64,000 nt of DNA from Vicugna vicugna (Eukaryota): positions 173,203 to 237,202 of the forward strand of contig MU057654.1 in NCBI GenBank assembly GCA_013265495.1. The letters are read 5' to 3'. Every line of letters begins with the position of its first letter. The stretch's first letter is position 1. Of this stretch, positions 1 to 58,294 are shown one piece after another. Made by a program: the position numbers and the translations under genes. A model generated the notes under the pieces. That model made no database searches, was not told the DNA's origin, and worked only from the letters and a program-made list of their open reading frames with translations.

Positions 1-612
1 ACTCCTGGGCTTGTATCCAGAAGGAAATCTACTTCAGGATGACCCCTGCACCCCAATGTTCATAGCAGCACTATTTACAATAGCCAAAACATGGAAACAG
101 CCTAAATGTCCATCAACAGGTGACTGGATAAAGAAGAAGTGGTATATTTATACAATGGAATACTCTTGAGCCATAAAAACCGACAACATAATGCCATTTG
201 CAGCAACATGGATGCTCCTGGAGAATGTCATTCTAAGTGAATTAAGCCAGAAAGAGAAAGAAAAATACCACATGAGATTGCTCATATGTGGAATCTAAGA
301 AAACAAACAAACAAACAAAGCGTAAATACAAAACAGAAATAGACTCATAGACATAGAACACAAACTTGTGGTTGCCAAGGGGGCGGGGGGTGGGAAGAGA
401 TAGACTAGGATTTCAAAATTGTAGAATAGATAAACAAGATTATACTGTATAGCACAGGGAAATATATACAAGATCTTATGGTAGCTCACAGAGAAAAAAA
501 TGTGATAATGAATATATATATGTTCATGTATGACTGAAAAATTGTGCTCTACACTTGAATTTGACACAACACTTTAAAATGATTATAAATCAATAAAAAA
601 TGTTAGAAAAAA
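1..612 (+). mobile_element. L1 3' end (ORF2 C-terminus, 3'UTR, A-tail), young lineage-specific family
   Basis: Typical L1 ORF2 end ([23 protein letters not shown]). AATAAA and A-rich tail at ~592-612. Nearly the reverse complement of 51991-52600. Confidence 0.9.
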
Positions 613-2492: not shown

Positions 2493-2790
2493 AAAGCGAA
2501 GTAAGCCAGAAAGTGAAAGAAAAATACTGTATGAGATAGTTCATATATGGAATCTAAAAAAAAAAGAACATAAATACAAAACAGAAACAGACCCATAGAC
2601 ATAGAATACAAACGTGTGGTTGCCAAAGGGAAGGGGATGGGAAGGGACAGACCGCGATTTCAAAATTTGTAGATACTGACAGGCATATGCAGAATAGAGA
2701 AACAAGATTATACTGTATAGTACAAGGAAATATATACAAGATCTTGTGGTGGCTCACAGCGAAAAAAAAATGTGACAATTAATATATGTT
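2493..2790 (+). mobile_element. L1 3'UTR fragment truncated before its poly(A)
   Basis: Homologous to 235-520 but stops abruptly at ~2790 and joins NXF intronic sequence. Confidence 0.8.
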
Positions 2791-2940
2791 GTTCTTCTCT
2801 CCAACCTGGAAGAGTGAGGAATGACAGGATCAGGTTCATGATCAAGTAAACTTTATTGTAGCTCTGGTATCATTGGGGAAAATGTTTACAAGACTTTCTG
2901 AGCATATATGGACCCCTTTCTTGTCTCCACTTCCCCACAG

Positions 2941-5900
2941 TGCTCCCTATGCCATTCCACCCTCTCATCAGAGAGGCAATTTTCAGGAAGGAGACCAAGC
3001 TCATGTTAACATGGAGACAGAGCAGAAGCCTCCAGAGAGAAGAATGGAGAGAAGCAGGCGGGCTGAGACCATGGGAAGCTGGTTCAAGATCACAGTGAGT
3101 GTCCTGACTAAATGGACCTAATACGTAGAAGAAGGTGAACAGAGGGAGTTGTGTTGGAATCGGGTAGAGATGGTATGAACTTTTCTGGGGCAGAGGAGTT
3201 GGTTATGTGTCTTGTTATTATTAGAAGTTAACATCCTAGACCATCTAAGAGAAGATTCAGAGAAGCAATATGAAGGGAACAGACTGACTGCAGGGAGCAT
3301 GGGAGAGGTTGTCTAAAAGCAAAGGAGGAAACTACTGTCAAGATGGAGCAACTTCATACCACAAAGCTCAGTTTGGCTCAGGCTGAGTGTGGGAGGAGGC
3401 TGCGTCTCTGGGGTCCTTGTCAGAGGGGCAGGCCAGGTCTGCCTTAGGTAGGGTCTCTTGGAACTTTACAAAAAGAAGTACGTGTTAAGCATATTAAGTT
3501 GATTATTTCAAGAAAAGTGTTTGAGGGGAAGAAACGATATTTAGAAAATCCACATGTGGTACAATAACAAATATCGACCTAGCGTAAAAAATTATTTAAA
3601 GCTTGAAAAAAAAAAGTCTGAAAGGAAGACCTGGTTGGGTCTTATCTTAAACTTATATTCTATTGTATCAATTTCCTCTCCCATTTTTCTCTTTGCCCCC
3701 CAGATTCCATTTGGCATAAAATATGAGGAGAAGTGGCTGCTGAATTTGATTCAGAAGTACTGCAGTGTCCCCTTCACTCCAGTTGAAGTAAGAGAGGACG
3801 TCGAGGCCAATGAGAGGAAACGGGGTAGATGGATGGTCCAGATGAGAAATGACTCTGGTCTCATATTGTCTTTCTCTTGTCACTCCCATTGACCCCTGTG
3901 ATGCACCGTATTCTATGCAGAAGGAGCTGCAGTCAGAAAAGGTGGAGCAGATAAAGGTAATGCAGACTCAACACAAGTTCTGCCCCACAGCCAGATCCAC
4001 CTATTGCTCCCCAATCAACACCTCAGACTCAGAGCCACTGAACCCCGTCTTTAACTCTGCAGCTGACCATGAACAAACTGTTTGATGCCTCCCAGGCATT
4101 TCTTAACAGCCAGAGACTCTGCTTTGGATCTGGTATGGCTATAGCAGTAATCCCAGGGCAGGTGAGGGCAGAGGGGTCTGCCTGGGAAAGACCTTCGGGA
4201 TCGTAACTCTGGGAGGGGTTGGTGCAGGCAGGACCCTCTCAGCTTTCTGTTTCCCTCCTGTTGGCTTCCTGGAGGCTTGATGACCTGTAATGTTGAAATG
4301 CCACGGAATCCGAGATATCGCATGCCTGCCCCTCTGCAGATCCGTGGAGAGAACATGCCCAAGGTGAGGACTTAGGCCCAATGTTGGGACTGATGGTGAG
4401 GGTGGGACAGATTAGGCAGAAGAGGCAGATTGGCCTCAAACATCCCCTGTTGGGGTCCTCACTCTCTTTCTCCATCATAGATTTTGTCCTTGGATTTGAG
4501 CAACAAGAGACTCTGCCAGCTGGGTGGCCTGTCTGATGCTACACAGAATGCTTCTGACATCAAGAATTTGAACGTCTCCAGTAGTGAGGTGAGGTGTGGT
4601 ACCCAGATCCCTCTTTGAAGAGGAGATGGGAGGGCTCATGGGAAGGTGACAGAGGAAGCGAAGTGAATTTGTTGGAAAAGGAAGGGACGACTGGGGGTGC
4701 AGTACCATCCTGGCTCTCTTTCTCTGGTTCGTGTGGTTTCTCTACATAATTACAGGCAAAGTCTTCAGGGGAGTTGGGCAAGGGCCAGAGGCTGGAACAA
4801 GATGGAATGTGTGCAGATAAAAACCCTCTGTGCACCACCCTTCCTGATAAGTCAACCAACATAAGGTCAGATGTACCCTCTGTCACCTGAACTATTCCTG
4901 ACAGTGTCTGTTTGCAAAAAGCAGCAGTCTTGGTCCTCTCAGAGGGCCACAGGCCCTATGCTATCCTCTCTGTGTCACATAGGTGACAAAGGTTCATATG
5001 GCATCCAGGAGGCCCCCAGCCCAACATATGCATAGTTTCCATTCCCACCACAGGTCCCTGGGACGAGCCAGTTCCCCTTCTTCTCTCTTCTTCCCTGATC
5101 CACCTCCAAACCATTGGAGAGGTTCTTTCCCTTCCCTTCACTTTGCTTTCTCTCTCTCCCTTGTCTCTATGACCCTATGTCTCTGTCTTCTCTTCTTCAT
5201 CCTTCACTCATTTTCTGTCTTAATCCCCCTCCACTTTCTTACCTGCCTCACTCATGTCCTTTCTCCAGCATCCGGGGCTGTCCCTGGGGGGGGTGTCCTA
5301 GTCTTGGCAGAATGCTGGACCCCCAGTGAGGTAGCAGAGCCCCTGACTCCAAACCCATTCCCTTTAGTCTCCGAAACCTTCAGTGGGGACCTGCAGAAAG
5401 TAAGACGGGGAAAGAAGCCTTATTCATGGTTGCTTCTTGTGGCACCTGGAGAACAGAGTCAGGACAGTCTAGGTGGGAGGTACCCAGGAGGGAAGGAGTG
5501 GAAGGAGAGGGATGGAGGGAGGCAGGCAGGTAGGGAACACTCTTCTGGTGTATCAGTCCATGTGGAAGGTGCCCAGGGCCGGGGAGTGTAGGTGGACACA
5601 CTGGACTGTGTCTGGTGTAAGTGTACTTGCTCCCACGAGAAGAGACCGCTTTGTAGTTTCACTGACTTTTCATCTTGGCAGCTCCATCCTGGAATTGTTC
5701 CCCAAGTTATTACGCTTGGTAAGTGTATTCCTCAATCACTGACTCCTCTAACTGACACTGACACCGCCCACAAACTACTCTGAACCCTTTAGGTCTTGCC
5801 TGAGTTCGATTTTTGAATGTGGCCCTTAAACGTTCTGGGGGCAGAGGGAGGGTACAGCCTCTGTGGGAAGCTCACAACAGCTCTGGGTCTTCTTCGACCA

Positions 5901-7713
5901 CGTCTGCCACAGCCTTCAGGGACCTCGTGGTGATGACCCGAAGTGTAGTCCTGCCCTCAGATTTTCCAGGGCCCTTCCACAGTTGACCTCTGACCCTCAC
6001 CCTCCTGGGCCCGTCCTTTTCCTTGACCATCCAGAAGTGCCTCTTGGTCTGCACCACTGACTTCCTCTTCCCTCTCACAGGATGGCCAGGAGACACCCCC
6101 ACCAGCTAAGTTAGGTGTGGACACCCGTAAGAGCTTACCAGCCTGCAAGGTGAGCACGGAGAATCAAGCAGGGCTTTGGGAGGTGCGTGAGGAGAGGGTA
6201 TCAGCCCTGGTGCTGAGGACTGTTTTGATTCCAGGGAAGCTTCTTTGGATCTGATCAGCTGAAGAGTCTTATCTTGCAATTCCTGCAGCAGTGAGTACTG
6301 CTGGCAACCTGAGGAAGGGGAGGGCTGGGACAGCTGAGGCCACCCAAGCTCAGCTCTGCTCACGGGAGTTTCCAAGTCTCATTTGAGGTCCGGACCACAG
6401 AGACAGACTGTGCTCATGGCTCCCCGACAGGTATTACTTGATCCACGACTCTGGAGACCGACAGGATCTCCTGGGTGCTTATCACGACGAGGCCTGCTTC
6501 TCCCTGACCATTCCCTTCAACCCCGAGGACCCAGCCCCGTGAGTATCACAGCTCACACTCTGCTCCTGGGCCGTGTGGCTCCCCAGCAGACGCAGGGCAG
6601 CTCCTGCAAACCCCCACACTGGGGCCGCCCACCTCCCCCTGCTTCTCTTTTTCTCCCAGGAGCAGCTTGTGGGAGTACGTCAAGGACAGTAGGAATATGA
6701 AGAAGCTCAAGGACCCCTGTGAGTGTGTGATGAGGAGGCGGGGCGGGAAGGGGTCAGTCCTAGGGCCCAGGGCGTGGCAGCCCCTGACCTTCCCTCGCTT
6801 CTCCTCCCCCCACAGACCTGCGGGTCCAGCTGCTGAAACACACAAAACGTGACATTGTGCGCTCCCTCTGCCTGTTGCCCAAAACTCAGCATGACCTCAG
6901 CTCCTTCGTGGTGGACATGTGGCTCCACACGGTGAGCATCTGCTTCCATCTTGGGCAGGACCAGTTGCTGCAGGTGGGTAGGAGGTTTAGGTGGTGACTG
7001 AGCGCCTGGGCTCTTCCTTTTCAGGACACAATGCTCTGCTTCTCTGTCAACGGGGTGTTCAAGGAAGGTGAGTGTGTGTAGACCCCCCGTCCCCAGATGC
7101 CCCACTGCTCCGTCCCCCTGGCCGGGCTCCCTCTCAGCACCCTCCCAGCCACCCTGATCCCTCTCCTTCTCTTCCTGGCCCCTCTGTGTTCTCCAGCCCT
7201 CGGTCTTCCCACAAAGGACCCAGGTCTGACCTGCGTTCATGCCTGTCTGCCCCGCACACCCTGGGCGTTAGGGACACAGGCTGTGGAGTTTGATGGCTCT
7301 CATCCCAGAGCCTTCCTATGAGATCCGGGGACCATTACTTAACCTCTCAGTTTCCTCATTTGCAGAATGAGGTATTAGCATCCATGTCTTGGGCAGCAGT
7401 GACAAATGCATCAATGAACTGGTGAAGTGGTTGTCACGGGCCCGCGCACAGTAGAGGTCCTGCCACCGGCAGCAGGTTGCTCCTATAGCTGCCCTCCACA
7501 TTCCCGACACCCTGGCGCCCAGTGAGCACCTGTCCCCTCAGCATGAGTTTCCAGTCAGACTCTGTCTGCAGACCCCTGTGTGAGCGTGTAAAGCAGGTGG
7601 GGCTCTCGGGGGTACTGATGTTTGCTTTTTGTCGTTGAAGTGGAAGGAAGGTCTCAGGGTTTTGTTCGTGCCTTCACCCAGACCTTCATCGCTATCCCTG
7701 CCAGCCATTCCAG
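2941..7713 (+). pseudogene. NXF3: NXF3-like nuclear RNA export factor, truncated at both ends (probable pseudogene or partial duplicate)
   Basis: GT-AG exons at 2941-3094, 3704-3787, (remnant 3891-3956), 4063-4132, 4275-4363, 4481-4588, 4756-4865, 5682-5718, 6081-6149, 6235-6290, 6431-6538, 6660-6718, 6816-6931, 7025-7067 and 7641-7713. NXF3-type peptides: [68 protein letters not shown]. The first exons, the FHY exon and the terminal exon(s) were not found. Confidence 0.85.
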
Positions 7714-8133
7714 GTGAGTGCCGTGTGGTTGGTGGGAACCCCCCTCCCAGCCTGGGCTCAGGGGTGTGGGAATGTGGTGGTGCCCACCTTAGGTTTTCTC
7801 AATACTGTGGAAAGCCAGCAGGTAGATCCAAGGAGCAGTCTAGCCTAGTGGTTAAGAAGGGCATGGGCTCTGGAACTGGAATGTGGCTTCTCTCCTTGGT
7901 CCCAGCACTCATTGGCTGTGTGACCTTGGTCAAGTCACGTGGCCTCTGTGCGACTCAGTGTCTTCCTATGACAGCGGGGATCAGACTGTCTACTCCCTGG
8001 GCTGTTGTAAAGGGTAAACATGAAACTGTCCCTGAGTTGCAGGGAAATGTCCAAATGTCATGAAGATGGTGGATAATCTCCCTAAAGGTGGGCTTGTGGG
8101 AGGGGCATAGGTACCAGCCAAGGAACATGCCTC

Positions 8134-23535: not shown

Positions 23536-24353
23536 CCTGTGACTCCTACCTGGCATGGTGATCAAAGGCAGGAGGCTGGGCAAATCTGGAGATGTGATCC
23601 TAAAAAAGCAGAGAGAAGATGCAGAGGTACACCATGTGGTTGGGCCCAAGAACCAAAGAGAGTCTCAAGGGCCAGAGATAGAGGAAGGGAGAGAAAGAGG
23701 AGGGGAGAGAAGGGTACTTAGAAAACAAAATATACCTTTCCCATGTGCATTCGCCACTAAGGGCTGGGGGTCATTACTGTCTGTCAGACTGAGTTTCAGA
23801 GCCCACTGAGAGTAGCCCAGCCAGGGTTCCTCAATTCTTGGCAAGACTTCAGGGAATTTCCGAACAATAGGAAGAGCAGAAAAGTATGAGAAAGGAAAGG
23901 AAAGCAGAAAATGGAAGACTTCCCTGATGATTCTGGCCTCCAGAACAGAGCATCCGATCAAGCCAGGGGGAGAAGGGAGTCAGCCCTGACGATCTGGCCT
24001 CCTGGGAGGGCCCGATCAAGCCAGGGGGAGACTCCTGTAGGGAGGAGGAGAAAGAGGGAGAAGCCCAAAGGGCTCCCCCAGAGTCCTAGCTATGTACAGG
24101 CCACCAAATGTTGTGGGACACAACACAGTGGCCCCTTGATGTGGTGACACGAAGGTTGGTGAAAGAATTTACCAGAGATAAAGTATGGGAATAGAAAAGG
24201 AGTTTATTAGGGTATGCTGTCATAGACAACAGTGGGCCACACAGATGAGAGGTGCCTGTGTGAGCCCTGGGGCAAAGAACAAGGGAAAAGTTTAGTAGCT
24301 ATGCTGCTATAGACAACAGCAGGCCACACAGGTAAGGGGTGCCTGCGTGAGCA
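23536..24353 (-). mobile_element. ERV1-like LTR R-U5 (24109-24353), tRNA-Ile PBS (24093-24106) and leader, fused 5' of STOX1
   Basis: Minus strand reads ctaataaactcc...tctctggtaaattctttcacc...cccacaaCA tt TGGTGGCCTGTACA. The last motif matches the tRNA-Ile(AAU) PBS TGGTGGCCCGTACG apart from two CpG transitions. Confidence 0.75.
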
Positions 24354-32124: not shown

Positions 32125-32342
32125 TTAAGCCGTCCTCCCCCGCCCCTCCCCTCGCCACACAAGCCTTACATGGATTGCGCAGTGGCGCCTTACATGGACT
32201 GCGCAGTGGCACGTTACGTGGATTGCGCAGTCATGTGACGTTGTAGGATTGCGACCCAGGGTGCGCCCTAGGATGCGCCCTTTATGCGTGAGGAGAGTCC
32301 CCTGAACGGTAGCTCGGCTAAGCCTTCTGAGGAGACAGACTG
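32125..32342 (+). promoter_or_regulatory. CpG-rich promoter and probable non-coding first exon of the NXF2-like gene
   Basis: Local CpG cluster, GC box (cccgcccctccc ~32138), three 24-bp repeats containing TGCGCA, and donor ctg|gtaggt at 32342/32343. Lies ~0.9 kb upstream of the first coding exon. Confidence 0.65.
32163..32234. repeat. Three tandem 24-bp units (gccttacatggattgcgcagtggc)
   Basis: Units at 32163-32186, 32187-32210 and 32211-32234, followed by a degenerate fourth. Confidence 0.85.
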
Positions 32343-33287: not shown

Positions 33288-36200
33288 ATGTCTGAGAGAC
33301 AGCAGCAACAAAAATGTTTTCTTCCATCAAAGAAATATGGGACATGCAGAAATGAAGGTAAAAGAATTTCTATATTGCCATATTTTTAAAGATAATATGC
33401 TAATATGCAACTTGAATCTCAGAGAGAGGGGTAGTGTCTTACTCTGTTCAGGGTACTATGATAGAACACCACGAATTGGGTGGCTTAAAAACAATATAAA
33501 TTTATTTTTCACTGTTCTGGGAATGGAACATTTTCCCACAGACCATTTGAAGTACTAGTGTTTCTCAGGAAACATTTTGAGAAAGCCTGTTCAAACTAAA
33601 TCTCTTCTACCACATTAATACCTTGTACTTTTGTTTACTAAGGATAATGTAATGTATATTTACTAATGATTATAATCTATTCTTCTCATTAAAAAAACTA
33701 CTTATTGCTAACTCTGTCTTATTAGTCATTCTCTCTCTTGCTGAATCTTTCCACTTTTTCATTCTTTACATATAACCTCAATTTATGTTTCTGATATCAT
33801 GATGGCAAGAAATAAGCACATAAGTGCTAGTCATTAGGAAATCTTATATATAAAATAAAATGCCCTACTCTTTTTTTTAATGAATATTTGCCCTTCTCTT
33901 GAAAGGATGATAAAACTTACCCGTAATGATGAACAGATGAAATATCTCTCATTTTATACCAATTTTCCACACTTTAAACAGTTTGTTATTACTTAATAAT
34001 TGTATGTTCCATTTTTTTCAGTTCCTCTCATATGTTGAGCACTTTGATAACCTTGTCATATAAGTTATCTAATTTAATCTTCAGAAAAATCCTGAGAGGA
34101 TGTTAATTTACAGATAAGATACAAGAGTCAGGAGAGGCTTGATTATGCTATGGTAGTAGACAATCCACAAATCTCAATGGCATGTTCCTCATTCCCACTA
34201 CATGTTGATGGCAGGTGCATGTCCATCACAGGATGGTGGACATTTTAGGGTCTGAGCCATTCTTATTGGAATGACTTGGAGACCCAAACTAGCAGAGCAG
34301 CCACCAACTAGAAAGTTGTCTGTCACTGTGCCTGAGGGGGAGAGAGCCCTGGAGGGTCTCAAACCAACAACCGTATGTTCTGGCCCAGAAATAACACATG
34401 TTACTCACAACTCATTAACCAGAACTAGTCACATACACAGCCCTGCCCAAACAAAGGAGGTTAAGAAGTGCAGTCTGCCAAGTCCCCAGAACAGGGAGAA
34501 ATGGAAACTCGTGGCAAACAGCATTACTGACTACCACATAATGGAATTGAAACTCAGAAAGATTAAGTACTTGCCTAAAATCACATGGGCAGTAAGTGAC
34601 ATAACACATTCGAGATATATGATTTCACAGTCCATGCTGTTTCTACTCCTACTCCTTTCTACATTTTTGTATGCTACCCTCTTAAATGAAGTTCATGTAT
34701 ACTTATCATAGAAATTCCTTTACTTCATTGCTGCAATTCCATCTCCCTTAATCATCTGATACTCCAACAATGGGCTTGATTAAATCCCCAGCACTGGTAA
34801 GTCACAGGTCTTTTCCAAGTAATTAGATGTATTGGATATTTGGCTGTCCATGCTATTCAAGGATAACAATTATAAAAGAAAACCTGATGGTAGATGAAAA
34901 GACTGTTGATTTGTCATATACTTAATAAAAGTAATCTTGTGCCTTTCCATATTGTCAAGAAAAAAAATAAAAAAGAGCAAAAATTAATGAAATTGATAAC
35001 AGATACAAAAGAGTTGAATAAAAATGCTAGGTGTTGGTGCTTTCAAAATATAAAAAAAAATAAGGAAACCTTTGGCAAGATAGGTCAAGAAAATTAGAAG
35101 GCACAGATAAGCCACTTTTGAATGAAAAAGGTGTCATCCATGTACTTACAATAAAGATGTAAAAGATAATATTATGAAAAAGATATGCTGATAATTTGAA
35201 AATTTATATTAGGTGGGTAAATTCTAGAAAATTTTTATATTGAAGAAACAGAATATTAATATCAACAGTATTCTTGGCAAGGAATGCATGAGAAGGCAAA
35301 ATTACTGGTCAATCTTAATTGGTTATAAAAATGCAAAAAAATTAGAAATAAGATAATAGCAAATATAATCCAGCAATGGCTAAAACAATACAGCAAGGCA
35401 AAGTTGTGGTTATCTCAGACTGGCAATGTTGGCTTAACATTTGGAGATCCATAATGCTAAAGGAGCAAGAAAAGAATGATTATCACAAAGATTCCAGAAA
35501 AAAAGGTGTACAATAGAATTCAATAACCAATCAAGATTAAACACCAACAAAAATAACTCTCAGCTAACCAGGAATAGAAAGATATTTCCTTAAAACGATA
35601 ATTGGTATTTAAAAAAAACTACGACATATACCATACATAGTAGTGAGACATTAAAAGCATTCCATTTTAAATCAGAAGGGGCAAAGGTGATTCATGTAAT
35701 CACTTCTGTTCAACATTTTACTGAGTCTCCTAGAAATTGCAGTAAGCCACAATATATATACATTAATTAATACATGTATAAAAGTGAAAGGAAACAAAAC
35801 TGAGTATAATTGCCTTCACATAAAATTCAAGAGAATCTACAGAAAATTGTAATAATAGAGACTAACCAGTTTATTGGCTGTAAGACTAATATACACAAAA
35901 TAATTGCAACAAATAGAAAATAATATTTTCATTGTGAATATACCATTTACAATAGCAAAAAAAAATCCTATGGAATATACCACGAATTGGCTCACTTCGC
36001 AACTTTTCCAACACTCATAAACATTTTTGTATGTTTTCCTGTACTGTGGAGACTGGAAAGCTAAAAACAAGAATGCAGAGCTATGTTAGTGTTAGACCCC
36101 CTACTTGTGTCTAGAGTCCCAAACAGGATCTCTGTGTATTAAACATATGCATCATAGTGAAACTTGGAGGTAAAACTGAGTAATGTGAGAGCCACGTGCA

Positions 36201-39200: not shown

Positions 39201-42200
39201 TGCTATGTACATGGATGTGCAAATATATCTTAGAGACTCTACTTTAAATTTTTTTGGAAATATACCCAGCAGTTATAGTTATGATGGTGAATAAGAGATA
39301 AAGAGAGGCATTGCATAATGATAAAAGGATCAGTCCACGACACAGACATAACGATCCTAAATTTGATGCACCAAACAACAGAGCCTCAAAGTACACAAAG
39401 CAAAAACCGATGGAGCTGAAAGGAGAAGTAGCCGGGTCCATGATTATATTTGGGGCCTTCAACACCCACTCTCCTCTTAGCAAGTGATCCAATTGCTAGA
39501 GAGAAAAATCAGCAAGGATATAGGAGATCTGAAAAACACAATAAACTGACAGAATCTACATGGTATAAATAGAACAATCCACCCAACAACAGCAGAGTAC
39601 AGTTGTTCCCCCTGAGGGTCTATGTAACATTCACCAAGTTAAACCATCTTCTGGACCGTCAACCTCAGTAAGTTCCAAAAGAATTGAAATCATACAGAGT
39701 ATGTTCCCTGGCCATGATGGAGTCAAATTAGAAGTCAGTAATAGAGAGAAAAAAGAAGAATCCCTAAACACTTGGAAATGGTACTTGACACATCATTCCA
39801 GGTTGTCGTTCAGACACTTGTTATAGAAGAACTGAGGTTAGGAAGAGTTGCCTCCTGAGCTGAAAGACGTTTCAGGCTGGTCCAAAAGAGAGTTCATTCT
39901 GGGCATTTCAAACAGTGTACTGCTGAGGGCAAGGCTGGAGAGAGGGAGACAGTTTAGGAGGCTATTACATCAGTCCTGCCTGACACTAATGCTTTTACTG
40001 CACTGTCAAAGGAAGGACAGCTTGCTGGTTGTTAGTGGAATCAGTCTGGTGACTGAATGGACTTGGGAAGCATGAGAGAGGTTGCTTCCCAAGTACTGGT
40101 GTGATTATTAGAAAGTCCTGAGAGGAGGCAAGATTCAGGTGCCTTCCTGGTGTATGACTGGTGTCCAGTCTAACCTGTGAATGCATATGCCTCTGTTCTT
40201 CATAAATCCTGCTCCATTGTTTTAAAGGGTTCAACACGGTTTTCCTCTTTCCTCTTCTCCTAATTCTTTCTCCTCCTCCTCCTGCTGCTCCCCCTTGATT
40301 CCTCCCCTGATAGTGCCTTCTATCTGCACAGGCAGAGAGTTTCCTTTCTGGGATTTGTGGGATTGGATCCTTAAGGTAGGTTGTGTGTGATTGGTCCCTT
40401 AGGGCAGGTTGGCACTTTGTTTTCCCTACCATCATGTTAGCCTAAGATGTGGTACATGGTAAGTGAACCACTGATGTGTCTTCAAATTTGTATTTTTGTT
40501 CCCCTTTCAGAATACAGTTATGGTAGTAGCTCATGTCAAGGAAGAAATGAAGGTTGGGGTTCTTTCCGAGGTAATTTTGGCAGGAGGAGCCCTCGTTATG
40601 AACGTGGTGGATGTGAGCCTCAGCCTTCACACCTCCAGGAGGAGGATGGAAACATGGTGATGGGGGATGTCCAGGAGGACCCCCAAGTGAGACAGTAAGT
40701 GACCAGGCAGCAGAGTTTGCATGCAGCAGCCCCTAGGACTGTGCAACCCTTTCACTCTCCATGCTCTTCTTTCTCTTCTCTCACTGGAAAACGGAAGTGT
40801 GCTAGAAGTGGAATAGAGGTTAAGTAATCCTAATCATAGTCCTGGTGTCAGAGAAGCAAGGCTGTACGGAAGACTTTCTTAGCATTTATGGCCACTCACC
40901 CTCCTTCTCTCCACATTCCCCTGCAGCACTCCGTATACCACCTACTGGAACAAGAGGAGAGTGAGATGTCATAGTGAAGGCTGCATCCGTGTTACTGTGT
41001 GGAGAGATAGAAAACCTCTGCAGAGAGAAATGAGAGAGAACGCACAAGATGGAACCCCAGGGAGCTGGTTCAAGATCACAGTGAGTGTCCTGAAAAATTT
41101 ATGGAATGTTTAGGAGAGAAAAGTCAGGGAGAATTGTGTTGGTCTCATGTAGAGACACTAGTTTATTTTCTGGGGACAGTTTATAATCTGTACTATATTG
41201 CTAAGAGTTATCAATCTTGTTCATCTAAGGGCAAATTCAAAGAAACAGTATAAAGAGAACACACTGACTATAAGGAGAACAGATTAGACTGTCTCAAGGC
41301 AAAGATGGAAACTACTGCCAAGGATATGGAGCAACTCCACACTGGAGGTCTCAGCTTGGCAAGCTGAGTGTGGGAGATGGGGTGTCGAGTCTCTGTAGAC
41401 CTTGTGTGAGGGACAGGCAGTGTCTGCACTAGGTAGGATCTCCTGGTACTTTAAGAAAGATCATCTCTAACACCTTGATAATTTCGAGGAGAGCTTTGTA
41501 TGGAGAGAAAGAGTGTTTAGTAAATCCATATTAGGCACAAACATAAGAAATCATGCCAGTGGTCCCTTCTTTAAAAGTCCTTTCAAGCTCAGTAGAAGGT
41601 CGGAAAAGAACATTGTGTTGGGTCTGTTCTCCAGTCTTAATTCTATGTTGTCTCGCTTCTTTCCCATCCCTGCTTTTCATCCTTAGATTCCTTATGGGAT
41701 AAATTATGACAAGATGTGGCTAATGAACTCAATCCAGAACCAATGCAGTGTCCCTTTCACTCCAGTGGATGTAAGAGAGGATGGTGAAGCCAGATGAGTG
41801 GGCAGAGGGAAGAGGGGGGATGGGGAGCCCACTGACGGGAAAGGCTTTGTCCTCTGAACTTATTGTTACCTCCCCATCCTGCAGTTCCACTATGTGAAAA
41901 ACCGGGCTCGGTTCTTTGTCCAGGGTGCTAGCACTGCCTCTGCATTGAAGGATGTCAGCTACAAGATTTGTGATGAGGAGAATGAAAAGGTGTGTGTCAG
42001 GGGCATTACCTGTACCTTATCCCAGGACAGGACAGTCCAGGGGCTGGTCCTCTTCTTTGGAACTAGAGTTCCTGGTACTAACCTTACCTCTTCTTCCTGC
42101 AGGTGGCTATCTTTGTCAGTCCCTCTACTGTTCCCTACTCTGTGCTGAATAAGTTGGAGCCAAAAGAAATGGAGCAGCTAAAGGTAGTGTAGACTCAAGG

Positions 42201-45200
42201 CATGCGGTGTGCCAACACTCAGACCCACCTCTTCTTCCTCCAGCCCCCAGTTCCCCTCGCCCCCAAATTTCCTGTCACCATCGCAGCTTCAGAGTGGCTC
42301 TCTCCATCTCTCTCTGCAGCTGACTTTGAACAAACGATATAATGTCTCCCAGCAAGCCCTTGACCTCCAGAATCTCCGCTTTGACCCAGGTATGGCTGAC
42401 AGCAGTAATTCTAGGACAGGGGAGGGCAGAGGGGTCTTCCTGGAGGGAGACTTAGGGAGGGTAACGTGTGTGGTGTGGGTGCTGGTTAGTGCTGGCCCCA
42501 GACCCCACTCAGCCTTCTGATTCACTTCCCTCGGCTTCCTGAAGACTTGGTGAGCCATGATATTGATATAATTCTGAATCGAAGAAACTGCATGGCTGCC
42601 ACCCTGCAGATCATCGAAAAGGATTTCCCTGAGGTGAGGCTGTAGGCCTAGTGCTGGTATTATGGTAAGGGGTGGAAGACATGGGGCGGAGGGCAGGTTG
42701 GTCTCCCAGGCCCTAGATAGTAACTGTCACTCTAACTTTTCTCCCCCCAAAGCTGTTGTCCTTGAACTTGAGCAGCAACAAACTGTACCGTCTGGATGGC
42801 CTGTCTGACATTATACAGATGGCCCCCACAGTCAAGATTCTGAACCTCTGCAAAAATGAGGTGAGAGGAGGGAGCCAGATCAAAGTTGGGTTGAGAGCTG
42901 GGGAGTCGTGGTCATCACAGTGATGACAGGAGGCTGGCGAAGGTACCTGTCAGGGAGGGTGGGGGTGGAGGTGCAGGATCTGGAAGTGTCTCTTTCCCTG
43001 GGATTCGTTTTCCAATTTCCTCCCCATATTTCTCAGCTGAAGTCAGCCTGGGAGTTGAGCAAGATGAAAGGGCTGGATCTCGAAGAGCTGTGGTTGCAAG
43101 GAAACCCACTGTGTGGCACCTTCCCAGACCACTCCACCTACGTAAGGTTGGTGATAACCACTGGCACCTTTCCGGGGACCTTTGCCCCCTTGGGAGCCTG
43201 AACTGCCCCTGAGAGCGCATGTGTGCAGGAAGGGACAACCCAGGTACTCGAGAAGGAGCACAGACCCCACCTTCTGCTCTCTCTGTGTCCCTCACATTTG
43301 AGGAGTGTCCTTCCTCTGACCTGCTCACCTCTTCAGGTGCTCTGGGGTCTGTTTCCAAACGCTGCACCCAGCATTCTCTACCAAGTCCTCCCAAGAGCGT
43401 GCTCCACAAAGTGGGACTCCCCCCGTCACCAGAACGGGGAGCCAGATGCTGATTCCCTGGCCTGAGAAGGGTCCTCCAGCTCAGGGTCTCAGGCTGAGAC
43501 AGGCTTTCCAACTCTATGCTGATATGGGGCTCCCCTCCCCCATTCTGAGAGAAGTCCTCTTTCCCTTCCTCCAAGACGGTCCTCCCTCCAACCCCAGGTT
43601 GACAAGGGGGCTTTCCTGCCACATACTCAGGGTAAAGCCCTGGTGGTTCCTGACATGACATCCGTTCCTCTGGCCCAACACCAGGAGCTGGGCCCTTCTT
43701 GTGGAAGAAGCAGGGTTCCTTGAGTCAAGGGGCCAGAAGTTTGTCACAGACAGTGAGCAGAGGGCTTCCCAAGGGGGAGTGGAAGGCAGAGGGCAGAGGA
43801 AGTAGAGGAGACAGAAAGAGAGGCCTCTCGGGGACACTTGCCCCTCCATCCCAACACACATCACATCATCTTGCCTGGTCCTTCAGAGGAGCCCTGGGCA
43901 GCCTGAGACAGATATGATTCCTCAGGTAAAGAACCAAGCAAGACAGGTGCAGGGACCATTGGGAGAGATGCTCGTGAGAGGGAGGCATAGACCCTCACTC
44001 AGCCCCACACTGAGCTGGGAGCTGACCCTTTACTCTTCTGGGGAAGGTCTGCCCCTGTGGCTGCTGTTTCCAACGCCCAGCTCAGACTGAGCTCACACAG
44101 GTGACAGAGACTCAACCAGCATCCAGCAGGCCCCCAGCCCAACATGTTGCATGGTTACCATCCCTACCATGGGTGCCTAGAAGAGGAAGGAAGCCCTGCA
44201 GGATGGATTTGAAATGCTGCTTTTGGGGTACTGGAGAAGAGAGTCAGCGTAGTCTAGGTGAGAGGTAACCCGGAGGTAGGGAAAGGAAGGGAGGATAGGA
44301 AGCAATACTAAAGTGAAGGTGTTGAGAGAGATGAGGAGACTGCCTTTCAGAGATTCAGATGACAGGTGCTTAGTGCTCAGCAGGGAGGTGGACCCAAAAC
44401 TCTTAAAATCAGAGGCTGAGGTGGGCAAAGGGGGCTGCTGGATGGGCCAGAACACACTGATGTCTGTTTATGGTGTCAGTGTTTTAACTCAAAAGAAGCG
44501 CTGCAACCTTGAACTATCAACCACCTGTCTCTGTATTTGGTTTTGGACAGTGCCATCAGAGAATGTTTCCCTAAGCTGTTACGCCTGGTAAGTGCTTATA
44601 TTCATCACTGTCTCTTACTAACTTGGTGACTTCTGCAGATGCCCTCAAGCTCTTTGGGTCTTGCCTAGATTACATGTTTGCATCAGACCCTTGTCCATTT
44701 TAGGGGACATGGATGCCTGAAAAAGACATGGATATACTCCCTGGAAAAACATCCATAAACACACACACACACACAACTAAAGTTGCATGTAACAGTAGAC
44801 ACTTCTAGGACCTCATGATGAAGACGCCCACTGTATATTGCCCATAGAATTTCCAGGGCTCTTTTGCACCTGACCTCTGACCCTCACCCTCCTGGGCCTG
44901 TCCTTTTCTGGGATCATCCAGGGCTGCCTCCCTAGTCCCCAATGCTGACTTCCTTTTCTTTTCCCCAGGATGGCAAGGAGTTACCCCCACCAATTATCAT
45001 TGACATTGACACTCCCTATGCAGTAAAGCCCTGCAAGGTGAGGAAGAAGAATCAAATAACATTTGCAGTGTTGCAAGGCAGGCTTTATCAGCCACATATC
45101 CTCGAATGCCTTTTGATTCCAGGAAAACTATAATGGATCTGAGATGCTGAAGAATCTGATCCTGACATTCCTGCAGCAGTAAGTACCCCTGGGACTATGA

Positions 45201-48200
45201 GAAACAGGGAATTCTGAGATGGCCCAGGCCACCCAAGAACCGTCCCTCACAGGGACTTCCAAGACTCACTTGGGTCGAGATCACACAGACAGCCTGTTTT
45301 CCTTGTTCCTTCTCAGGTATTACATGATCTACGACTCTGGAGACCGACATGGTCTCCTCAGTGCTTACCATCACAGGGCCTACTTCTCCCTGACCATTCC
45401 CTTCAACCCCGAGGACCCAGCTCCGTGAGTATCACAGCTCACACTCTGCTCCTGGGCCGTGTGGCTCCCCAGCAGACGCAGGGCAGCTCCTGTAAACCCC
45501 CACACTGGGGCCGGCCCACCTCCTCCTGCTTCTCTTTTTCTCCCAGGAGCAGCTTGCGGGAGTACTTCAAGGACAGCAGGAATATGAAGAAGCTCAAGGA
45601 CCCCTGTGAGTGTGTGATGGGGAGATGGAGCGGGAAAAGGGGCAGGAAGGGGTCAGTCCTAGAGCCCAGGGCATGGCAGCCCCTGACCTTCCCTCGCTTG
45701 TCCTCCCCCCACAGACCTGCGGGTCCAGCTGCTGAAACACACAAAACGTGACATTGTGCGCTCCCTCTGCCTGTTGCCCAAAACTCAGCATGACCTCAGC
45801 TCCTTCGTGGTGGACATGTGGCTCCACACGGTGAGCATCTGCTTCCATCTTGGGCAGGACCAGTTGCTGCAGGTGGGTAGGAGGTTTAGGTGGTGACTGA
45901 GCGCCTGGGCTCTTCCTTTTCAGGACACAATGCTCTGCTTCTCTGTCAACGGGGTGTTCAAGGAAGGTGAGTGTGTGTAGACCCCCCGTCCCCAGATGCC
46001 CCACTGCTCCGTCCCCCTGGCCGGGCTCCCTCTCAGCACCCTCCCAGCCACCCCGATCCCTCCCCTTCTCTTCCCGGCCCCTCTGTGTTCTCCAGCCCTC
46101 GCTCTTCCCACAAAGGACCCAGGTCTGACCTGCGTTCATGCCTGTCTGCCCCGCACACCCTGGGCGTTAGGGACACAGGCTGATCATCCCAGACCTATGA
46201 GATCCGGGGACCATTACTTAACCTCTCAGTTTCCTCATTTGCAGAATGAGGTATTAGCATCCATGTTTTGGGCAGCAGTGACAAATGCATCAATGAACTG
46301 GTGAAGTGGTTGTCACGGGCCCACGCACAGTAGAGGTCCTGTCCCTGGGATCAGATTGCTCCTATAGCTGCCCTCCACATTCCCAACACCCTGGCCCCCA
46401 GTGAGCACCTGTCCCCTCAGCATGAGTTTCCAGTCAGACTCTGTCTGCAGACCCCTGTATGAGCATGTAAAGCAGGTGGGGCTCTCGGGGGTACTAATGT
46501 TTGCTTTTTGTCATTGAAGTGGAAGGAAGGTCTCAGGGTTCTGTTCGTGCCTTCACCCGGACCTTCATCTCTATCCCTGCCAGCTATTCCAGGTGAGTGC
46601 CGTATCATGGGTGGGAACCCCTGTCCCAGCCTGGGCTCAGGGGTGTGGGAATGTGGTGGTGCCCACCTTAGGTTTTCTCAATACTGTGGAAAGCCAGCAG
46701 GTAGATCCAAGGAGCAGTCTAGCCTAGTGGTTAAGAAGGGCATGGGCTCTGGAACTGGAATGTGGCTTCTCTCCTTGGTCCCAGCACTCATTGGCTGTGT
46801 GACCTTGGTCAAGTCACGTGGCCTCTGTGCGACTCAGTGTCTTCCTATGACAGCGGGGATCAGACTGTCTACTCCTTGGGCTGTTGTAAAGGGTAAATGT
46901 GAAATCTTCCCTGGCTTCAAGATGAACCTATAAATCTAATGAAGCTGGTAGACACTTCCCAGAGGTGGGCTTTGTGGGGATATAGGAATCCAAAGATCCT
47001 CGGGGACAGACACAGGAAGGTTATGGGATGAATCTGGTGGCTGAGTGGCTTGTTGTTGAGGGTGTGGTGGGTGGTCCATCCGTCCAGTTGTCTGAGGGCT
47101 TATTTTTCTTTCAGTCTTTTCATTGTGAATGACGAGCTGTTTGTGAGGGACACCAGCCTTAATAAGACCCTGAGCACTTTCTCCATCTCAGTTCCCACAC
47201 CCTCTGCTAGTTCCATGCCCACGCTATCCCAGGAGCAGCAGCAAATGGTACAAGATTTCTCCACCCAGTCTGAGATGAACCTCCAGTGGTCTCAGAAGTG
47301 AGTATGGGGTGTGCATGGCGATAAGAGGAAGCTGGGAGACTGAGGGAGTGAATAATATGAACACACAGGCAATTTGAAAAAATAAGTATTTGGATATTTT
47401 ACTTCCAGAAAAAAGTAAGCTCATGAAAAATGTATCTTAATTTTATGATAATATATGCAAAGAATTTTAAAACAGTATCATGCTCAGATGACATAATCTT
47501 TTATATGAAAAATCCTAAGATATCCACTAAGAAACTATCTGAATAGATAAACAAGTTCAGCAAAGTTTCAGGCTACAAAATTGATACACAAAAATCATTT
47601 ATATTTCTATGCACTTACAGTGAATTATCCTACATCAGAATTAAGAAAAAATTTGATTTATAATAGCATCAGATGAATAAATACTTAGGAAGAAATGTAA
47701 CTAAAGAAGTGAAAAATTTATACTTTGAAATCTTCAAAACAGTGAATAAATTAAAAAAAACCTTAAAAAATGGAAGGACATTCTATGTTCATGGATAGGA
47801 AGGCTTAATATTGTTAAGATGGTAATAATATTCAGAGTGCGCTACACAGTCAACACCATATCTATTAAAACCCCAGCTGACTCCTTTCCAAAAATTGATG
47901 AGGTGATTCTAAAATTCACATGGAAATGCAGTGGACTCAGAATAGTCAGAACGATATTGAAAGGGAAGAGTAAAGTTGAGGATTCACAAGTCCTGATCCC
48001 CACAATTTCAAAACCTACTACAAAGGTACTGTAATCAAGACTACATGGCACTGACATTTGGATAGGCCAATGCAATAGAAGTGAGAGTCCAGAAATAAAC
48101 CCTGACATTTGTAGCCAATTGATTTTCAATGAGGTGCCAGAAAAAATAATGGAGGAAAAAATAATCTTTTTAACAAATGGTGCTGGGACTCTTGGGTATT

Positions 48201-49684
48201 CACGTGCAAAAAAATGAATTTTGACCCCATCACACACCATATACAAATATTGACACAAAATGGATCAAAGACCTGTAAGCTCTACAAAGTAGAATCTCTT
48301 AGAAGAAAACATAGGTGTTTATCTTCATGACCTTGAATTAAGCAATGGTTTCTTATAATGACACCAAAACACAAGCAACCAAAGAAACAAATAAATTGCA
48401 CTTCATCAAAAATAAAAGCTTTGTGCATCAAAGGATACTATCAAGAAAGTGAAAATACAACCCACAAAATGGGAGAAAATGTTTTCAAATCTCATATCTG
48501 TTAAGGTCTACTATCTGGAATACTGAAGGATTTTACAGCTCAACAGTCAAAAGATAAATACCCAATTGAAAAGTGGGGAAAGGATTTAAAAGACATTTCT
48601 CTAAAGATGATAAACAAATGACCAAAAAGCACACGAAAAAAGGCTCAACATCATTACCTATTAGGGAAATAAAAATTAAAACAGCTGTGAGATACCATTT
48701 CACACATACTAAGATGGCTTTAATCAATGAAATGAAAGATAAGCGTAGGTGAATATGTGGAGAAATTAGAACTCTCATATATTATAGGTATGAAGGTTCA
48801 GTGGAGCATTCACTTTGGAAAAAAATTTGGCAGTTCCTCAAAATATTATACATGGTGTTACCATATGACCAAGTAATCTCACTCCTAAGTATATACCAAG
48901 AGAAATAAAACGTATGTTCACTCTAAAACTTGTACAGGAATGTTCATAGCAGCATTATTCATAATAGCCAAGAAGTGGGAACAACCCAAATGTCCTTTAG
49001 CTGATGAATGGATAAATAAATCTAGTACATACATACAGTAGACTTATTCAGCCATTAAAAAATACAGTTCTGATATATGTCATGACATGGATGAACCTTG
49101 AAAACACTAAGTGAAAGAAGCCAGCCACAAAAGGTCGTGATGGTAAATAGTATTGTTTCTTAATTACCCTTTCTGCTATTTGAACATCTTTCTTGATCAG
49201 TATATATTCAGTTTCCTTGTTCTTTGGCACAGCTCTACTTTTCTGTTTTGAATTCTAGTGGGAATGAATGCTAGTGGTAGGTATTTTGGTTTTCACTGGG
49301 TCTTTCTTCGTCATTACACATAGTGCTCTTACTGGTACATGTGTCCCAGCAAGACAGTGGCATAGATTTAGCGGTGGAATTGCACGGTCAGCATGTCCGT
49401 ACTGTGGAACCAATGGAGATCACCTGTTCTTCTCCCACTGCAGGTGCCTTCAGGACAATGACTGGAACTACACCAGAGCTGGTCAGGTCTTCACTAAGTT
49501 CAAGGTGAGGTCTGGGAATCAGGTGGGTTAAAGATGAACATTTCTGAGCCTTCAGGAAAGCCAAGAAGGTGGAGGCCAGTGTCCTGGGGGTGAAACTCTG
49601 GGAACTGGCTCTTCTAATATCCTGACTCCTTCTCTCCAGGCCGAGGGCAAGATCCCAGAGGAGGCCTTCAAACAAATCCCCTAA
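33288..49684 (+). CDS. NXF2: Nuclear RNA export factor 2-like (RRM, LRR, NTF2-like, UBA/TAP-C domains), 634 aa, spliced
   Basis: Coding exons: 33288-33357, 40511-40694, 40927-41080, 41687-41770, 41885-41989, 42103-42183, 42320-42389, 42545-42633, 42753-42860, 43037-43146, 44551-44587, 44969-45037, 45123-45178, 45317-45424, 45547-45605, 45715-45830, 45924-45966, 46520-46592, 47115-47297, 49444-49504, 49640-49684. Total 1905 nt, all GT-AG, phases consistent, no internal stop. Peptides [48 protein letters not shown] and [13 protein letters not shown] match recalled NXF2. The first coding exon is less certain than the rest. Confidence 0.9.
34960..35990 (+). mobile_element. Highly decayed L1 ORF2 fragment (intronic)
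   Basis: A-rich, with motifs aagcattccattttaaatcagaa and ataccatttacaatagc. Confidence 0.55.
36440..37360. mobile_element. ERVL/MaLR internal-like fragment (intronic)
   Basis: actcagttcccacacttgacccag...ccaaagggacc resembles ERVL gag/pro remnants. Confidence 0.4.
38079..38183 (+). mobile_element. tRNA-Ala-derived SINE (camelid Vic-1-like)
   Basis: ggggagggtatagctcagtggtaga...ttagcatgcacgaggtcctggattcaatccccagtacctcca plus A-tail. TSD agccagacaca on both sides. Confidence 0.85.
38740..39780. mobile_element. L1 fragments (antisense 3' end 38740-39270; sense ORF2 endonuclease piece 39280-39780)
   Basis: L1 3'UTR motifs on the minus strand. HCIMIKGSV...[13 protein letters not shown] endonuclease segment on the plus strand. 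Confidence 0.7.
47480..49140 (+). mobile_element. Old L1 ORF2 3' half inside an NXF2 intron
   Basis: [22 protein letters not shown] sequence at ~47770 and further ORF2-end motifs. Confidence 0.8.
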
Positions 49685-49886
49685 AAGGAGCCCTTGGATG
49701 ACGTCTTTGTCTACATCCATGTCATCTTTGTTTCTCTCTTCTCCAGCCTCAGGCCACGCCCATGGCTGAGGTTGGAGGCCTGGCCAACTAAGAAGCCAAA
49801 GTTATCTTGTAGGCCAGGTAACATAACCACCTGAAGGGTCAGTTGTTCTGTGTATTTTCATACTCACGATTGCTGTTTATTTTCTT

Positions 49887-49892
49887 AATAAA
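49887..49892 (+). promoter_or_regulatory. Polyadenylation signal of the NXF2-like gene
   Basis: AATAAA ~200 nt after the stop, followed by GT-rich downstream sequence. Confidence 0.8.
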
Positions 49893-57900: not shown

Positions 57901-58294
57901 GGGCTGGGTGTCGCAGGGACCCTCTGTGCCCATTTAACTTAATTCTGTCCGTCAAGGGCTGCTCCCTACACATCCGAGCTTCGGAAGCTCCCCCTCCTTT
58001 CCGCTGGCCTCTCTGTTGGAGAGGGGAGACCCAGTGCACTAGCGCCAGTCCTCCTTTTTCGCTCCCTCCCCTCAGGACCGGTCCCGCACTGTTTTGCCTT
58101 TTCACCTTCCTTGTTTTTCCTTTCTCCTACCAGATTTTTGGCATCTTTGTCTTTTGAAGAGGACAATGTTCTGTTGGAGTTCCACAGGTGCTCTGGTTGG
58201 CTGAGTGGGTCCGTGGATGTGAGCCTTGGTGTATCTGTGGGAGAGGGTGAGCCACGAGTGTCCTACTACTCCGCCATCTTGGCCTCTCTCTCCC
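51991..58294 (-). mobile_element. Young, 5'-complete L1 with most of ORF1 deleted and a disrupted ORF2
   Basis: 5' end ggccaagatggcggag and a CpG-rich 5'UTR. ORF2 starts MTINTHLSLTTVNVNGLNAP at 56159, with endonuclease, RT and C-terminal pieces to 52317. Perfect 16-bp TSD ccagtatgtagcttct at 51975-51990 and 58295-58310. Confidence 0.95.

What the first reader, a model, noticed from the sequence alone, without database searches (positions are those of the whole stretch)
6497..8018. Sharply bounded gene-conversion tract homogenising the NTF2-like domain of NXF3 and NXF2
Seen: 6497-8018 is almost identical to 45383-46897, introns included, with long perfect runs (about 6806-7130 and 7765-7995). 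The flanking introns and the RRM/LRR exons of the two genes are strongly diverged. Identity is patchy (an indel near 7283-7300 vs 46180), suggesting repeated events. Known: the NTF2-like domain binds NXT/p15 and FG nucleoporins, and as recalled human NXF2 and NXF3 are also most alike here. Inference: recurrent ectopic conversion across ~39 kb keeps the NXT-binding module in concerted evolution while the RNA-binding part diverges. The truncated copy may act as a sequence donor.
Basis: partly seen in the sequence, partly recalled or inferred. Interest (0 to 1): 0.75.

Follow-up and report, generated by a model that had tools for sequence, protein, structure and literature searches.

The report
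Gene conversion couples NXF2 and NXF3
Two old X-linked RNA-export genes of mammals, NXF2 and NXF3, keep copying one protein domain into each other within each lineage while the rest of the genes drifts apart, a familiar evolutionary pattern that I did not find described for this fertility-related family.

Summary
The tract is real. Window 6497-8018 and 45383-46897 are 97.3% identical, introns included, against 69-75% in the flanks, with sharp ends and patchy perfect runs. The window is camelid. Copy B is an intact NXF2-type gene (at the NXF5 position by gene order). Copy A is a broken 5.35-kb NXF3-type fragment, and further copies lie on other contigs. In 11 of 11 placental lineages NXF3 is closer to its own lineage's NXF2 than to other lineages' NXF3 in the tract, and in 0 of 11 in the RRM or LRR. 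The RRM/LRR tree splits by paralog (100/100); the tract rejects an NXF3 clade (AU p 4e-7). Records from four camelid species show the same, so collapse in this assembly is not the cause. No read-level check was obtained, so the fine patchwork is less secure. Corrections: exchange is cluster-wide and two-way, and the linker that also contacts NXT is excluded. Camelids also have chimeric NXF2/NXF3 gene models. Closest precedent: TLR1/TLR6. No paper on NXF conversion was found in the library, and the scan had not noted this on other DNA. New member of a known kind.

The parts
2779..8129 (+). Copy A: NXF3-type gene fragment. Exons homologous to B exons 3, 4 and 7-18 are present; the first NXF3 exon, exon 5, the start of exon 6 and everything after intron 18 are missing
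   Evidence: Matches C4853:37331-43800 at 94-99.7%; upstream exon present in C4853 and C7647 but not in the window; exons 3 and 7-18 have AG/GT ends, exon 4 was entered one base off; NXF3-type by protein comparison
3887..3889 (+). Junction of a 234-bp deletion in A that removes RRM exon 5 and the acceptor of exon 6
   Evidence: C4853 38439-38672 absent from the window; the C7647 copy has the segment
5682..5718 (+). A exon 11, carrying the NXF3-diagnostic ILELF motif (candidate CRM1 export signal; position recalled, not read in a paper); about 780 bp outside the tract
   Evidence: Motif class in 70 of 81 NXF3-type and 3 of 69 NXF2-type proteins
6081..6149 (+). A exon 12, LRR-NTF2L linker; strongly paralog-specific across mammals, outside the tract
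   Evidence: Window 347-361: D -0.30 to -0.50 in 8 of 10 lineages; residues listed
6497..8018 (+). Homogenised tract in A: 3' half of exon 14, exons 15-18, introns 14-17 and the start of intron 18
   Evidence: 97.3% to B, change points; exon and intron table
6802..7154 (+). 353-bp perfect run, identical in A, B and copy C
7745..7996 (+). 252-bp perfect run in which A equals B and differs from copy C at 12 of 12 variable sites
33288..33357 (+). First coding exon of copy B
   Evidence: Joins exon 40511 in phase and gives a 634-codon open frame
40511..49684 (+). Copy B coding exons 2-21: intact NXF2-type gene (RRM, LRR, NTF2-like, UBA)
   Evidence: 20 exons with AG/GT ends and one open frame; 6 differences in residues 62-610 to a record named Vicugna pacos NXF2; four Pfam domains in the camel ortholog P0009
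44551..45037 (+). B exons 11-12, NXF2-type, not homogenised with A
   Evidence: 72-74% exon identity, 72% intron identity
45383..46897 (+). Homogenised tract in B; encodes residues matching human NXF1 416-525
   Evidence: numbering from the gap-free alignment to 4WYK
47115..47297 (+). B exon 19 (end of NTF2-like domain, start of UBA linker); outside the A-B tract and of a different type from copies C and D

Best explanation
Recurrent, two-way non-allelic gene conversion among X-linked NXF paralogs. NXF2-type and NXF3-type genes split before the placental radiation. Since then, in most lineages, stretches of a few hundred bases have been copied between paralogs over the exon-dense region that encodes the core of the NTF2-like domain. 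Each event keeps local identity high enough for the next one. Tracts that run left into exons 11-13 are mostly not kept in NXF3 or in the main NXF2 gene. The likely reason is that those exons carry what makes the paralogs different: NXF3's export-signal motif and its altered linker. SHOWN: the tract, its ends, intron identity, discordant trees, lineage-private residues shared by both paralogs, and presence in independent assemblies. INFERRED: conversion as the molecular route, two-way transfer, ongoing activity, and selection as the cause of the left boundary.
For: DNA: 97.3% with introns vs 69-75% on both sides. Mosaic site patterns among copies: 13 of 13 sites AC|B in 6497-6801, 4 of 4 BC|A in 7155-7203, 12 of 12 AB|C in 7745-7996. 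A second cross-type pair, C and D, differs at 1 of 946 columns. Proteins, 150 of 183 kept: own-lineage NXF2 is closer than other-lineage NXF3 in 11 of 11 lineages for the tract; 0 of 11 for N-terminus, RRM and LRR; 1 of 11 for residues 341-404. It is 10 of 10 after dropping three chimeric NXF2-type rows. Trees of 44 rows: the paralog label needs 1 change in RRM/LRR (100/100) and 16 in the tract (12 forced by starred branches; shuffled mean 14.8); AU rejects an NXF3 clade in the tract, p=3.7e-7. Lineage-private residues shared by both types: 84 in 110 tract columns, 13 in 90 RRM, 10 in 137 LRR. Direction: window B has the NXF3-type residue at a site where 5 of 5 other B-type records share another residue; a Vicugna B record has NXF3-type residues in exon 15 that window B lacks; a Bactrian A-like record has B-type residues in exon 18.
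Against: No read-level check was obtained. Other copies in this assembly have N gaps inside the tract, so individual perfect runs and single-site polarity could be assembly consensus. Outside camelids the evidence is protein only. The effect is weak in some lineages: own vs other-lineage NXF2 is 0.68/0.67 in Eulipotyphla and 0.74/0.73 in Simiiformes. In carnivores NXF3 rows group together (84/83) apart from NXF2. A stricter earlier filter gave 9 of 10 lineages, missing Eulipotyphla. Types were called from the RRM and exon 10, so that split is partly circular; the N-terminus and 341-404 were not used and agree. The GC skew of differences (27 vs 10 in the tract) is equally present in the left flank (81 vs 39), so it is no tract-specific sign of biased conversion.
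Confidence: 0.88

Rival explanations
1. Assembly artefact: reads of one copy were collapsed into the other.
For: Scaffold gaps sit in the tract of other copies (C4853 560-2057, C7429 7664-10485). A, B and C are identical over 353 bp where gapped copy E and Vicugna record P0008 differ. No read check.
Against: 41 substitutions and 5 indels remain. Records on 102-121 Mb contigs of four camelid species show 92-95% tract identity against 53% in the RRM. The pattern recurs in other orders. Flanks at 70-75% would not collapse by themselves. At most it explains single runs.
Confidence: 0.03
2. No exchange: strong purifying selection, or parallel change to fit the same NXT partner, keeps the domain alike.
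For: NXF2 and NXF3 both bind NXT2 through this domain (PMC12234887, passages). It could contribute where the effect is weak.
Against: Introns are 95-100% identical and there are 0 synonymous differences in exons 16-18. Among orthologs the tract is no more conserved than the RRM (about 0.76 vs 0.75), yet paralogs reach 0.93-1.00 in bat, horse, whale, camelid and ground-squirrel pairs.
Confidence: 0.02
3. Birth and death of chimeric genes by unequal crossing-over and re-duplication inside a tandem NXF array, rather than short conversion.
For: The cluster is amplified: at least three NXF3-type 5' parts and two NXF2-type genes. Camelid records include NXF2-5'/NXF3-3' and NXF3-5'/UBA-3' forms. A is itself a moved fragment.
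Against: The tract is internal, with divergent sequence on both sides, and changes partner every 50-400 bp. That would need many double crossovers. It may explain the long chimeras (D type) and copy number.
Confidence: 0.07
4. Conversion is real but the fixed boundaries are neutral: exchange continues only where identity happened to stay above the recombination threshold. This competes with the selection step of the best explanation, not with conversion itself.
For: Five exons lie in 1.3 kb with short introns. The right boundary varies among lineages: exon 19 is clearly included in whales, horses and ground squirrels, not in bats or lemurs. D-type genes with longer tracts are fixed in four camelid species.
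Against: The left boundary falls between residues 376 and 405 in most lineages and sits just after the exons with paralog-specific motifs. The equally conserved, equally exon-dense RRM is not exchanged in any of 11 lineages.
Confidence: 0.35

Closest known systems
TLR1/TLR6 domain-limited gene conversion (Kruithof et al. 2007, PMC2077338; abstract and section 6 read)
   Same: Old mammalian paralogs; one partner-binding region groups by species and the rest by paralog; independent events in many orders with similar boundaries.
   Different: There the region lies in continuous coding sequence of two tandem genes. Here introns are included, the cluster has several copies, partners can be far apart, and a broken copy takes part.
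Long-lasting concerted pairs BMP8A/B, DDX19A/B, TUBG1/2 (Carson and Scherer 2009, PMC2720389; passages, 5 supplement files searched)
   Same: Over 97% identity across consecutive exons and introns, duplication before the eutherian radiation.
   Different: NXF is not mentioned in the text or the held supplements. Their screen needed over 97% in human; ape NXF2/NXF3 are only 85% alike in the tract at protein level. They saw no overlap with domains; here the tract tracks one domain.
BEX/WEX/GASP conversion at Xq22 (Winter and Ponting 2005, PMC1274310; passages)
   Same: Same chromosomal neighbourhood; lineage-wise conversion making chimeric genes.
   Different: Concerns 5' UTR motifs and single-exon genes; in the passages seen, NXF genes appear only in the gene table.
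Mammalian NXF2/NXF3/NXF5 and NXF1:NXT1 (PMC12234887, PMC3652825, PMC4330390; passages)
   Same: Domain order; NTF2-like domain as NXT-binding part; NXF3 without UBA and with a CRM1 signal; the cluster and its disputed orthology.
   Different: Conversion is not proposed in the passages seen (0 occurrences of the word in PMC3652825). Camelid chimeric forms are not described there.

Membership tests
Non-allelic gene conversion / concerted evolution | Paralogs more alike within than between species in the region | tested here: met
   11 of 11 lineages, 10 of 10 without chimeric rows; weak in Eulipotyphla and Simiiformes, and in the tree carnivore NXF3 stay apart
Non-allelic gene conversion / concerted evolution | Flanking regions keep the paralog phylogeny | tested here: met
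   RRM/LRR tree: 1 change, 100/100; AU p=3.7e-7 against an NXF3 clade in the tract
Non-allelic gene conversion / concerted evolution | Neutral sites (introns, synonymous) are homogenised too | tested here: met
   This genome only: introns 14-17 95-100% vs 65-81% outside; no DNA of other species was available
Non-allelic gene conversion / concerted evolution | Internal tract with divergent sequence on both sides | tested here: met
   Change points 6497 and 8019; A's right flank is only 111 bp before A ends
Non-allelic gene conversion / concerted evolution | Non-reciprocal transfer seen in phased molecules or meioses | not testable with these tools
   No read-level data obtained; direction inferred from alleles in other records
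Non-allelic gene conversion / concerted evolution | GC-biased substitution in the tract | tested here: inconclusive
   B tract GC 0.574 vs 0.49 in its flanks, but the strong/weak skew is the same in the left flank
NXF2-type (NXF2/NXF5/Nxf7 group), copy B | [quoted passage not shown] | tested here: met
   634 codons; Pfam on ortholog P0009
NXF2-type (NXF2/NXF5/Nxf7 group), copy B | Groups with NXF2-named proteins in RRM/LRR | tested here: met
   Clade support 97/96
Positional ortholog of human NXF2, copy B | Lies at the NXF2 position (distal to BEX5) | tested here: not met
   Contig order BEX-family(+,+,-), B(+), ARMCX(+,-) mirrors BEX5, WEX2, WEX1, NXF5, GASP9, GASP6 in the table of PMC1274310; ZMAT1 between them was not checked
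NXF3, copy A | NXF3-type RRM, LRR and exon 11 motif | tested here: met
   Near-identical to records named camelid NXF3, which fall in the NXF3 clade 100/100
NXF3, copy A | Complete gene at the NXF3 locus | tested here: not met
   Lacks first exon, exon 5 and exon 19; lies beside B
NXF3, copy A | CRM1-dependent export activity | not testable with these tools
   Signal's existence read in PMC12234887 and 10.1101/596171; its residues (L300, L302) are recalled; numbering checked through G276 in P0153

The most novel reading that the evidence does not exclude
The X-linked NXF cluster works as a parts exchange. The NTF2-like core is kept common so that all paralogs track the same fast-changing testis partner NXT2, while occasional longer tracts swap the export-route parts. 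Camelids would thus have fixed an NXF2 with NXF3's CRM1 signal plus its own UBA (5 D-type records in 4 species) and an NXF3 that regained a UBA (records in C. ferus and C. dromedarius): natural dual-route exporters. The broken copy A, beside B since before camels and South American camelids split, would be a standing donor and recipient.
Probability: 0.25. Interest if true: 0.72.

Novelty: new member of a known kind. Interest (0 to 1): 0.52.

Why it matters
NXF2, NXF3 and NXT2 form the testis export pathway, and loss of NXT2 or NXF3 is linked to male infertility (PMC12234887). If the NTF2-like core is exchanged lineage by lineage, whole-protein trees and dN/dS scans of this family mix two histories. 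Homogenisation among X-linked copies may also explain why gene order and function give different human-mouse orthologs (PMC3652825); that link is my inference. Short-read variant calls in exons 14-18 will cross-map in species with recent tracts. The boundary marks which parts make NXF3 differ from NXF2, and the camelid chimeras give natural swaps with which to test the CRM1 and UBA export routes.

Tried and rejected
No read-level check was obtained, so phase and single perfect runs stay unverified. The run list showed only short-read contigs holding about 0.70 of the words in several studies; nothing was laid, so it is no evidence. Protein filters: one search kept 61 of 106 rows and one search kept 104 of 183; both dropped many NXF3 models that skip an LRR exon or were ambiguous in exons 7-8. 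(150 of 183; 31 dropped for coverage, 2 as mixed type) is the one reported; 15 short hits were never aligned. Exon 19 also scores 11 of 11, but NXF3 tails are degenerate, so I did not treat it as part of a universal tract. UBA comparison (5 of 7) is uninformative because most NXF3 lack it. GC-biased conversion: inconclusive. Repeats as boundary signals: no direct or inverted repeat at either end. Two intron segments look like old MIR SINEs (recalled look; weak genome-wide hits for the right-hand one), and I saw no reason to make them causal. ZMAT1 between the BEX-family genes and the window was not checked. Four primary papers (Herold 2000, Yang 2001, Tan 2005, Zhou 2011) were not held. In the supplements of PMC12234887 the signal's position was not found, and 4 files could not be searched. 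No complex or structure prediction was run: an NXF-NXT pair would pass by likeness to solved structures.

Full report
Observation. The repeat is as described. Window 6497-8018 aligns to 45383-46897 with 41 substitutions and 5 indels in 1502 columns (97.3%), against 73-75% on the left and 69% on the right. The ends are sharp, at 6491-6504 and 8013-8019. Two perfect runs, 6802-7154 and 7745-7996, are longer than random scatter allows (p=0.0008 and 5e-5). Introns 14-17 are 95-100% identical and the nine alignable introns outside are 65-81%. Jukes-Cantor distances are 0.028 in the tract and 0.22-0.46 in flanking introns. If the duplication is about 100 million years old (recalled age of the placental radiation), the tract averages under 10 million years; this is a rough scaling.

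Anatomy. Copy B is an intact gene of 21 coding exons and 634 codons (33288-49684). It differs at 6 positions in residues 62-610 from a record named Vicugna pacos NXF2, 4 of them in the tract, so the window is camelid. On its contig B lies between three BEX-family genes (+,+,-) and two ARMCX genes (+,-). That mirrors the human order around NXF5 in the table of PMC1274310. B is NXF2-type by sequence and NXF5 by position. Copy A (2779-8129) is NXF3-type but broken: no first exon, a 234-bp deletion over exon 5 and the start of exon 6, and nothing after 8129. The tract starts in mid exon 14 and ends in intron 18. It encodes 110 of about 151 residues of the NXF_NTF2 domain, equal to human NXF1 416-525.

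Other copies. The genome also holds NXF1 (C9287), a fuller NXF3-type copy C and a gapped copy E (C4853), another NXF3-type 5' part (C7647), a second NXF2-type gene D (C7429) and a decayed exon at the start of the window's contig. Site patterns among A, B and C switch along the tract: 13 AC|B sites, none for 353 bp, 4 BC|A, 13 AC|B, a mixed zone, then 12 AB|C. C and D differ at 1 of 946 columns over the right part. At least two cross-type pairs therefore share different recent segments. Several of those copies have N gaps inside the tract, and no read-level check was obtained, so single runs could be assembly consensus.

Independent assemblies. Records on chromosome-scale contigs of four camelid species show NXF3-type proteins at 31-53% identity to B in N-terminus, RRM and LRR and 95% in the tract. 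This excludes collapse in this assembly as the cause of the tract. Three sites give direction. Window B has the NXF3-type residue at a site where 5 of 5 other B-type records share another residue. The Vicugna B record has two NXF3-type residues in exon 15 that window B lacks. A Bactrian record that resembles A, ending after exon 18, carries B-type residues there. A C. ferus model joins 5' exons like those of that record to B, which suggests that A already lay upstream of B in the common ancestor. These are gene models, so this is indirect.

Across mammals. Two searches listed 120 of 195 and 120 of 929 hits. I aligned 182 of them with B and kept 150 of 183 rows. NXF3 is closer to its own lineage's NXF2 than to other lineages' NXF3 in 11 of 11 lineages for the tract, 0 of 11 for N-terminus, RRM and LRR, and 1 of 11 for residues 341-404. 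Best cross-type pairs reach 94% (bat, horse), 97% (whale), 99% (camelid) and 100% (ground squirrel) in the tract at 49-54% in the RRM; the ape pair is 85% vs 52%. With 44 rows picked by coverage and camelid NXF1 as root, the RRM/LRR tree needs 1 change of the paralog label (100/100). The tract tree needs 16, like shuffled labels, and an NXF3 clade is rejected (AU p=3.7e-7). Without three chimeric NXF2-type rows the result is 10 of 10 lineages, 14 changes in 41 rows, and the clade is still rejected. Against this: an earlier, stricter filter gave 9 of 10; the signal is weak in Eulipotyphla and Simiiformes; carnivore NXF3 rows group together (84/83), so exchange there is old or rare; outside camelids the data are protein only; and type calls used the RRM and exon 10.

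Mechanism. Recurrent two-way ectopic conversion fits best (0.88). Selection alone cannot homogenise introns, and among orthologs the tract is no more conserved than the RRM. Unequal crossing-over may explain copy number and long chimeras, but not partner switches every few hundred bases. Why the boundary sits where it does is inferred, not shown. In NXF1 the tract region holds the RNA-binding residues 429-469 and the nucleoporin sites 486-491 and 519-521. The NXT1-contacting linker (I360, F362, V364; loop 367-372) lies just left of it (PMC4330390, passages). That linker is the most paralog-specific stretch near the tract, and NXF3 has lost its hydrophobic pattern. One exon further left is the ILELF motif of NXF3, found in 70 of 81 NXF3-type and 3 of 69 NXF2-type proteins. 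I recall its leucines as the CRM1 signal; the numbering matches but the primary paper was not held. Selection against overwriting these exons is my preferred reason for the left boundary. A neutral identity-threshold model remains open (0.35).

Chimeras. Five D-type records from four camelid species have NXF2 exons 2-10, the NXF3 exon 11 motif and a UBA. Records from C. ferus and C. dromedarius have NXF3 5' exons with a UBA. In this genome D's exon 11 falls in a gap. If these forms are expressed, they are natural swaps of the two export routes.

Known or new. The pattern is the TLR1/TLR6 kind (PMC2077338, abstract and section 6) and resembles BMP8A/B, DDX19A/B and TUBG1/2 (PMC2720389, passages; NXF absent from the text and 5 supplement files). 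Conversion is known for BEX/WEX/GASP in the same region (PMC1274310, passages). Searches for NXF2/NXF3 with conversion, concerted evolution, homogenisation, phylogeny or ampliconic terms listed no paper that, by title, abstract start or passages read, describes it for NXF genes. The library lacks most subscription journals, and four primary NXF papers were not held. The scan's notes held one other finding in this window, on a different feature, and none on look-alike DNA.

Verdict. New member of a known kind; interest 0.52.

Noticed in passing
window 59374-59667 (+), broken frame, within L1-like sequence: Decayed processed copy of the NUP62 3' end (E 7e-18 to human p62 residues 421-522), 10 kb downstream of the NXF2-type gene; probably coincidence.
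   Followed up: partly
window 32163-32234: Three 24-bp direct repeats with a TGCGCA core in a CpG-rich patch about 1 kb upstream of B's first coding exon; promoter-like, NRF1-type motif by recall.
   Followed up: no
G000:C7429 (L016, L017) vs window 39292-43968 and 49180-49993: The two NXF2-type genes B and D are 98-99% identical at the 5' end and 96% at the 3' end but differ strongly in exon 19, so NXF2-type copies are homogenised with each other over other regions.
   Followed up: partly
G000:C4853 1-6400 vs 41850-48185: Apparent tandem repeat of about 41.8 kb carrying NXF3-type copies, 96-100% identical and gap-rich; real array or scaffolding artefact.
   Followed up: partly
G000:C4853 43919-44109 (L003, L012): Copy C has a frameshift in exon 19 relative to B and D; matching camelid NXF3 records are flagged low quality and end without a UBA.
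   Followed up: partly
G000:C604 732-896 (L023): Decayed NXF exon 19 with stops, about 175 kb upstream of copy A.
   Followed up: no
proteins P0167, P0135 (Urocitellus) and P0097 (Tursiops): Further mixed NXF2/NXF3 gene models outside camelids; real chimeras or annotation joins.
   Followed up: partly
window 1-612 and 51992-52614: Two 3' ends of a young L1, 91.5% identical in inverted orientation, with a long L1 at about 52000-58300.
   Followed up: no
window about 20900-24350: Stretch that looks by eye like a decayed LTR element on the minus strand; not tested.
   Followed up: no
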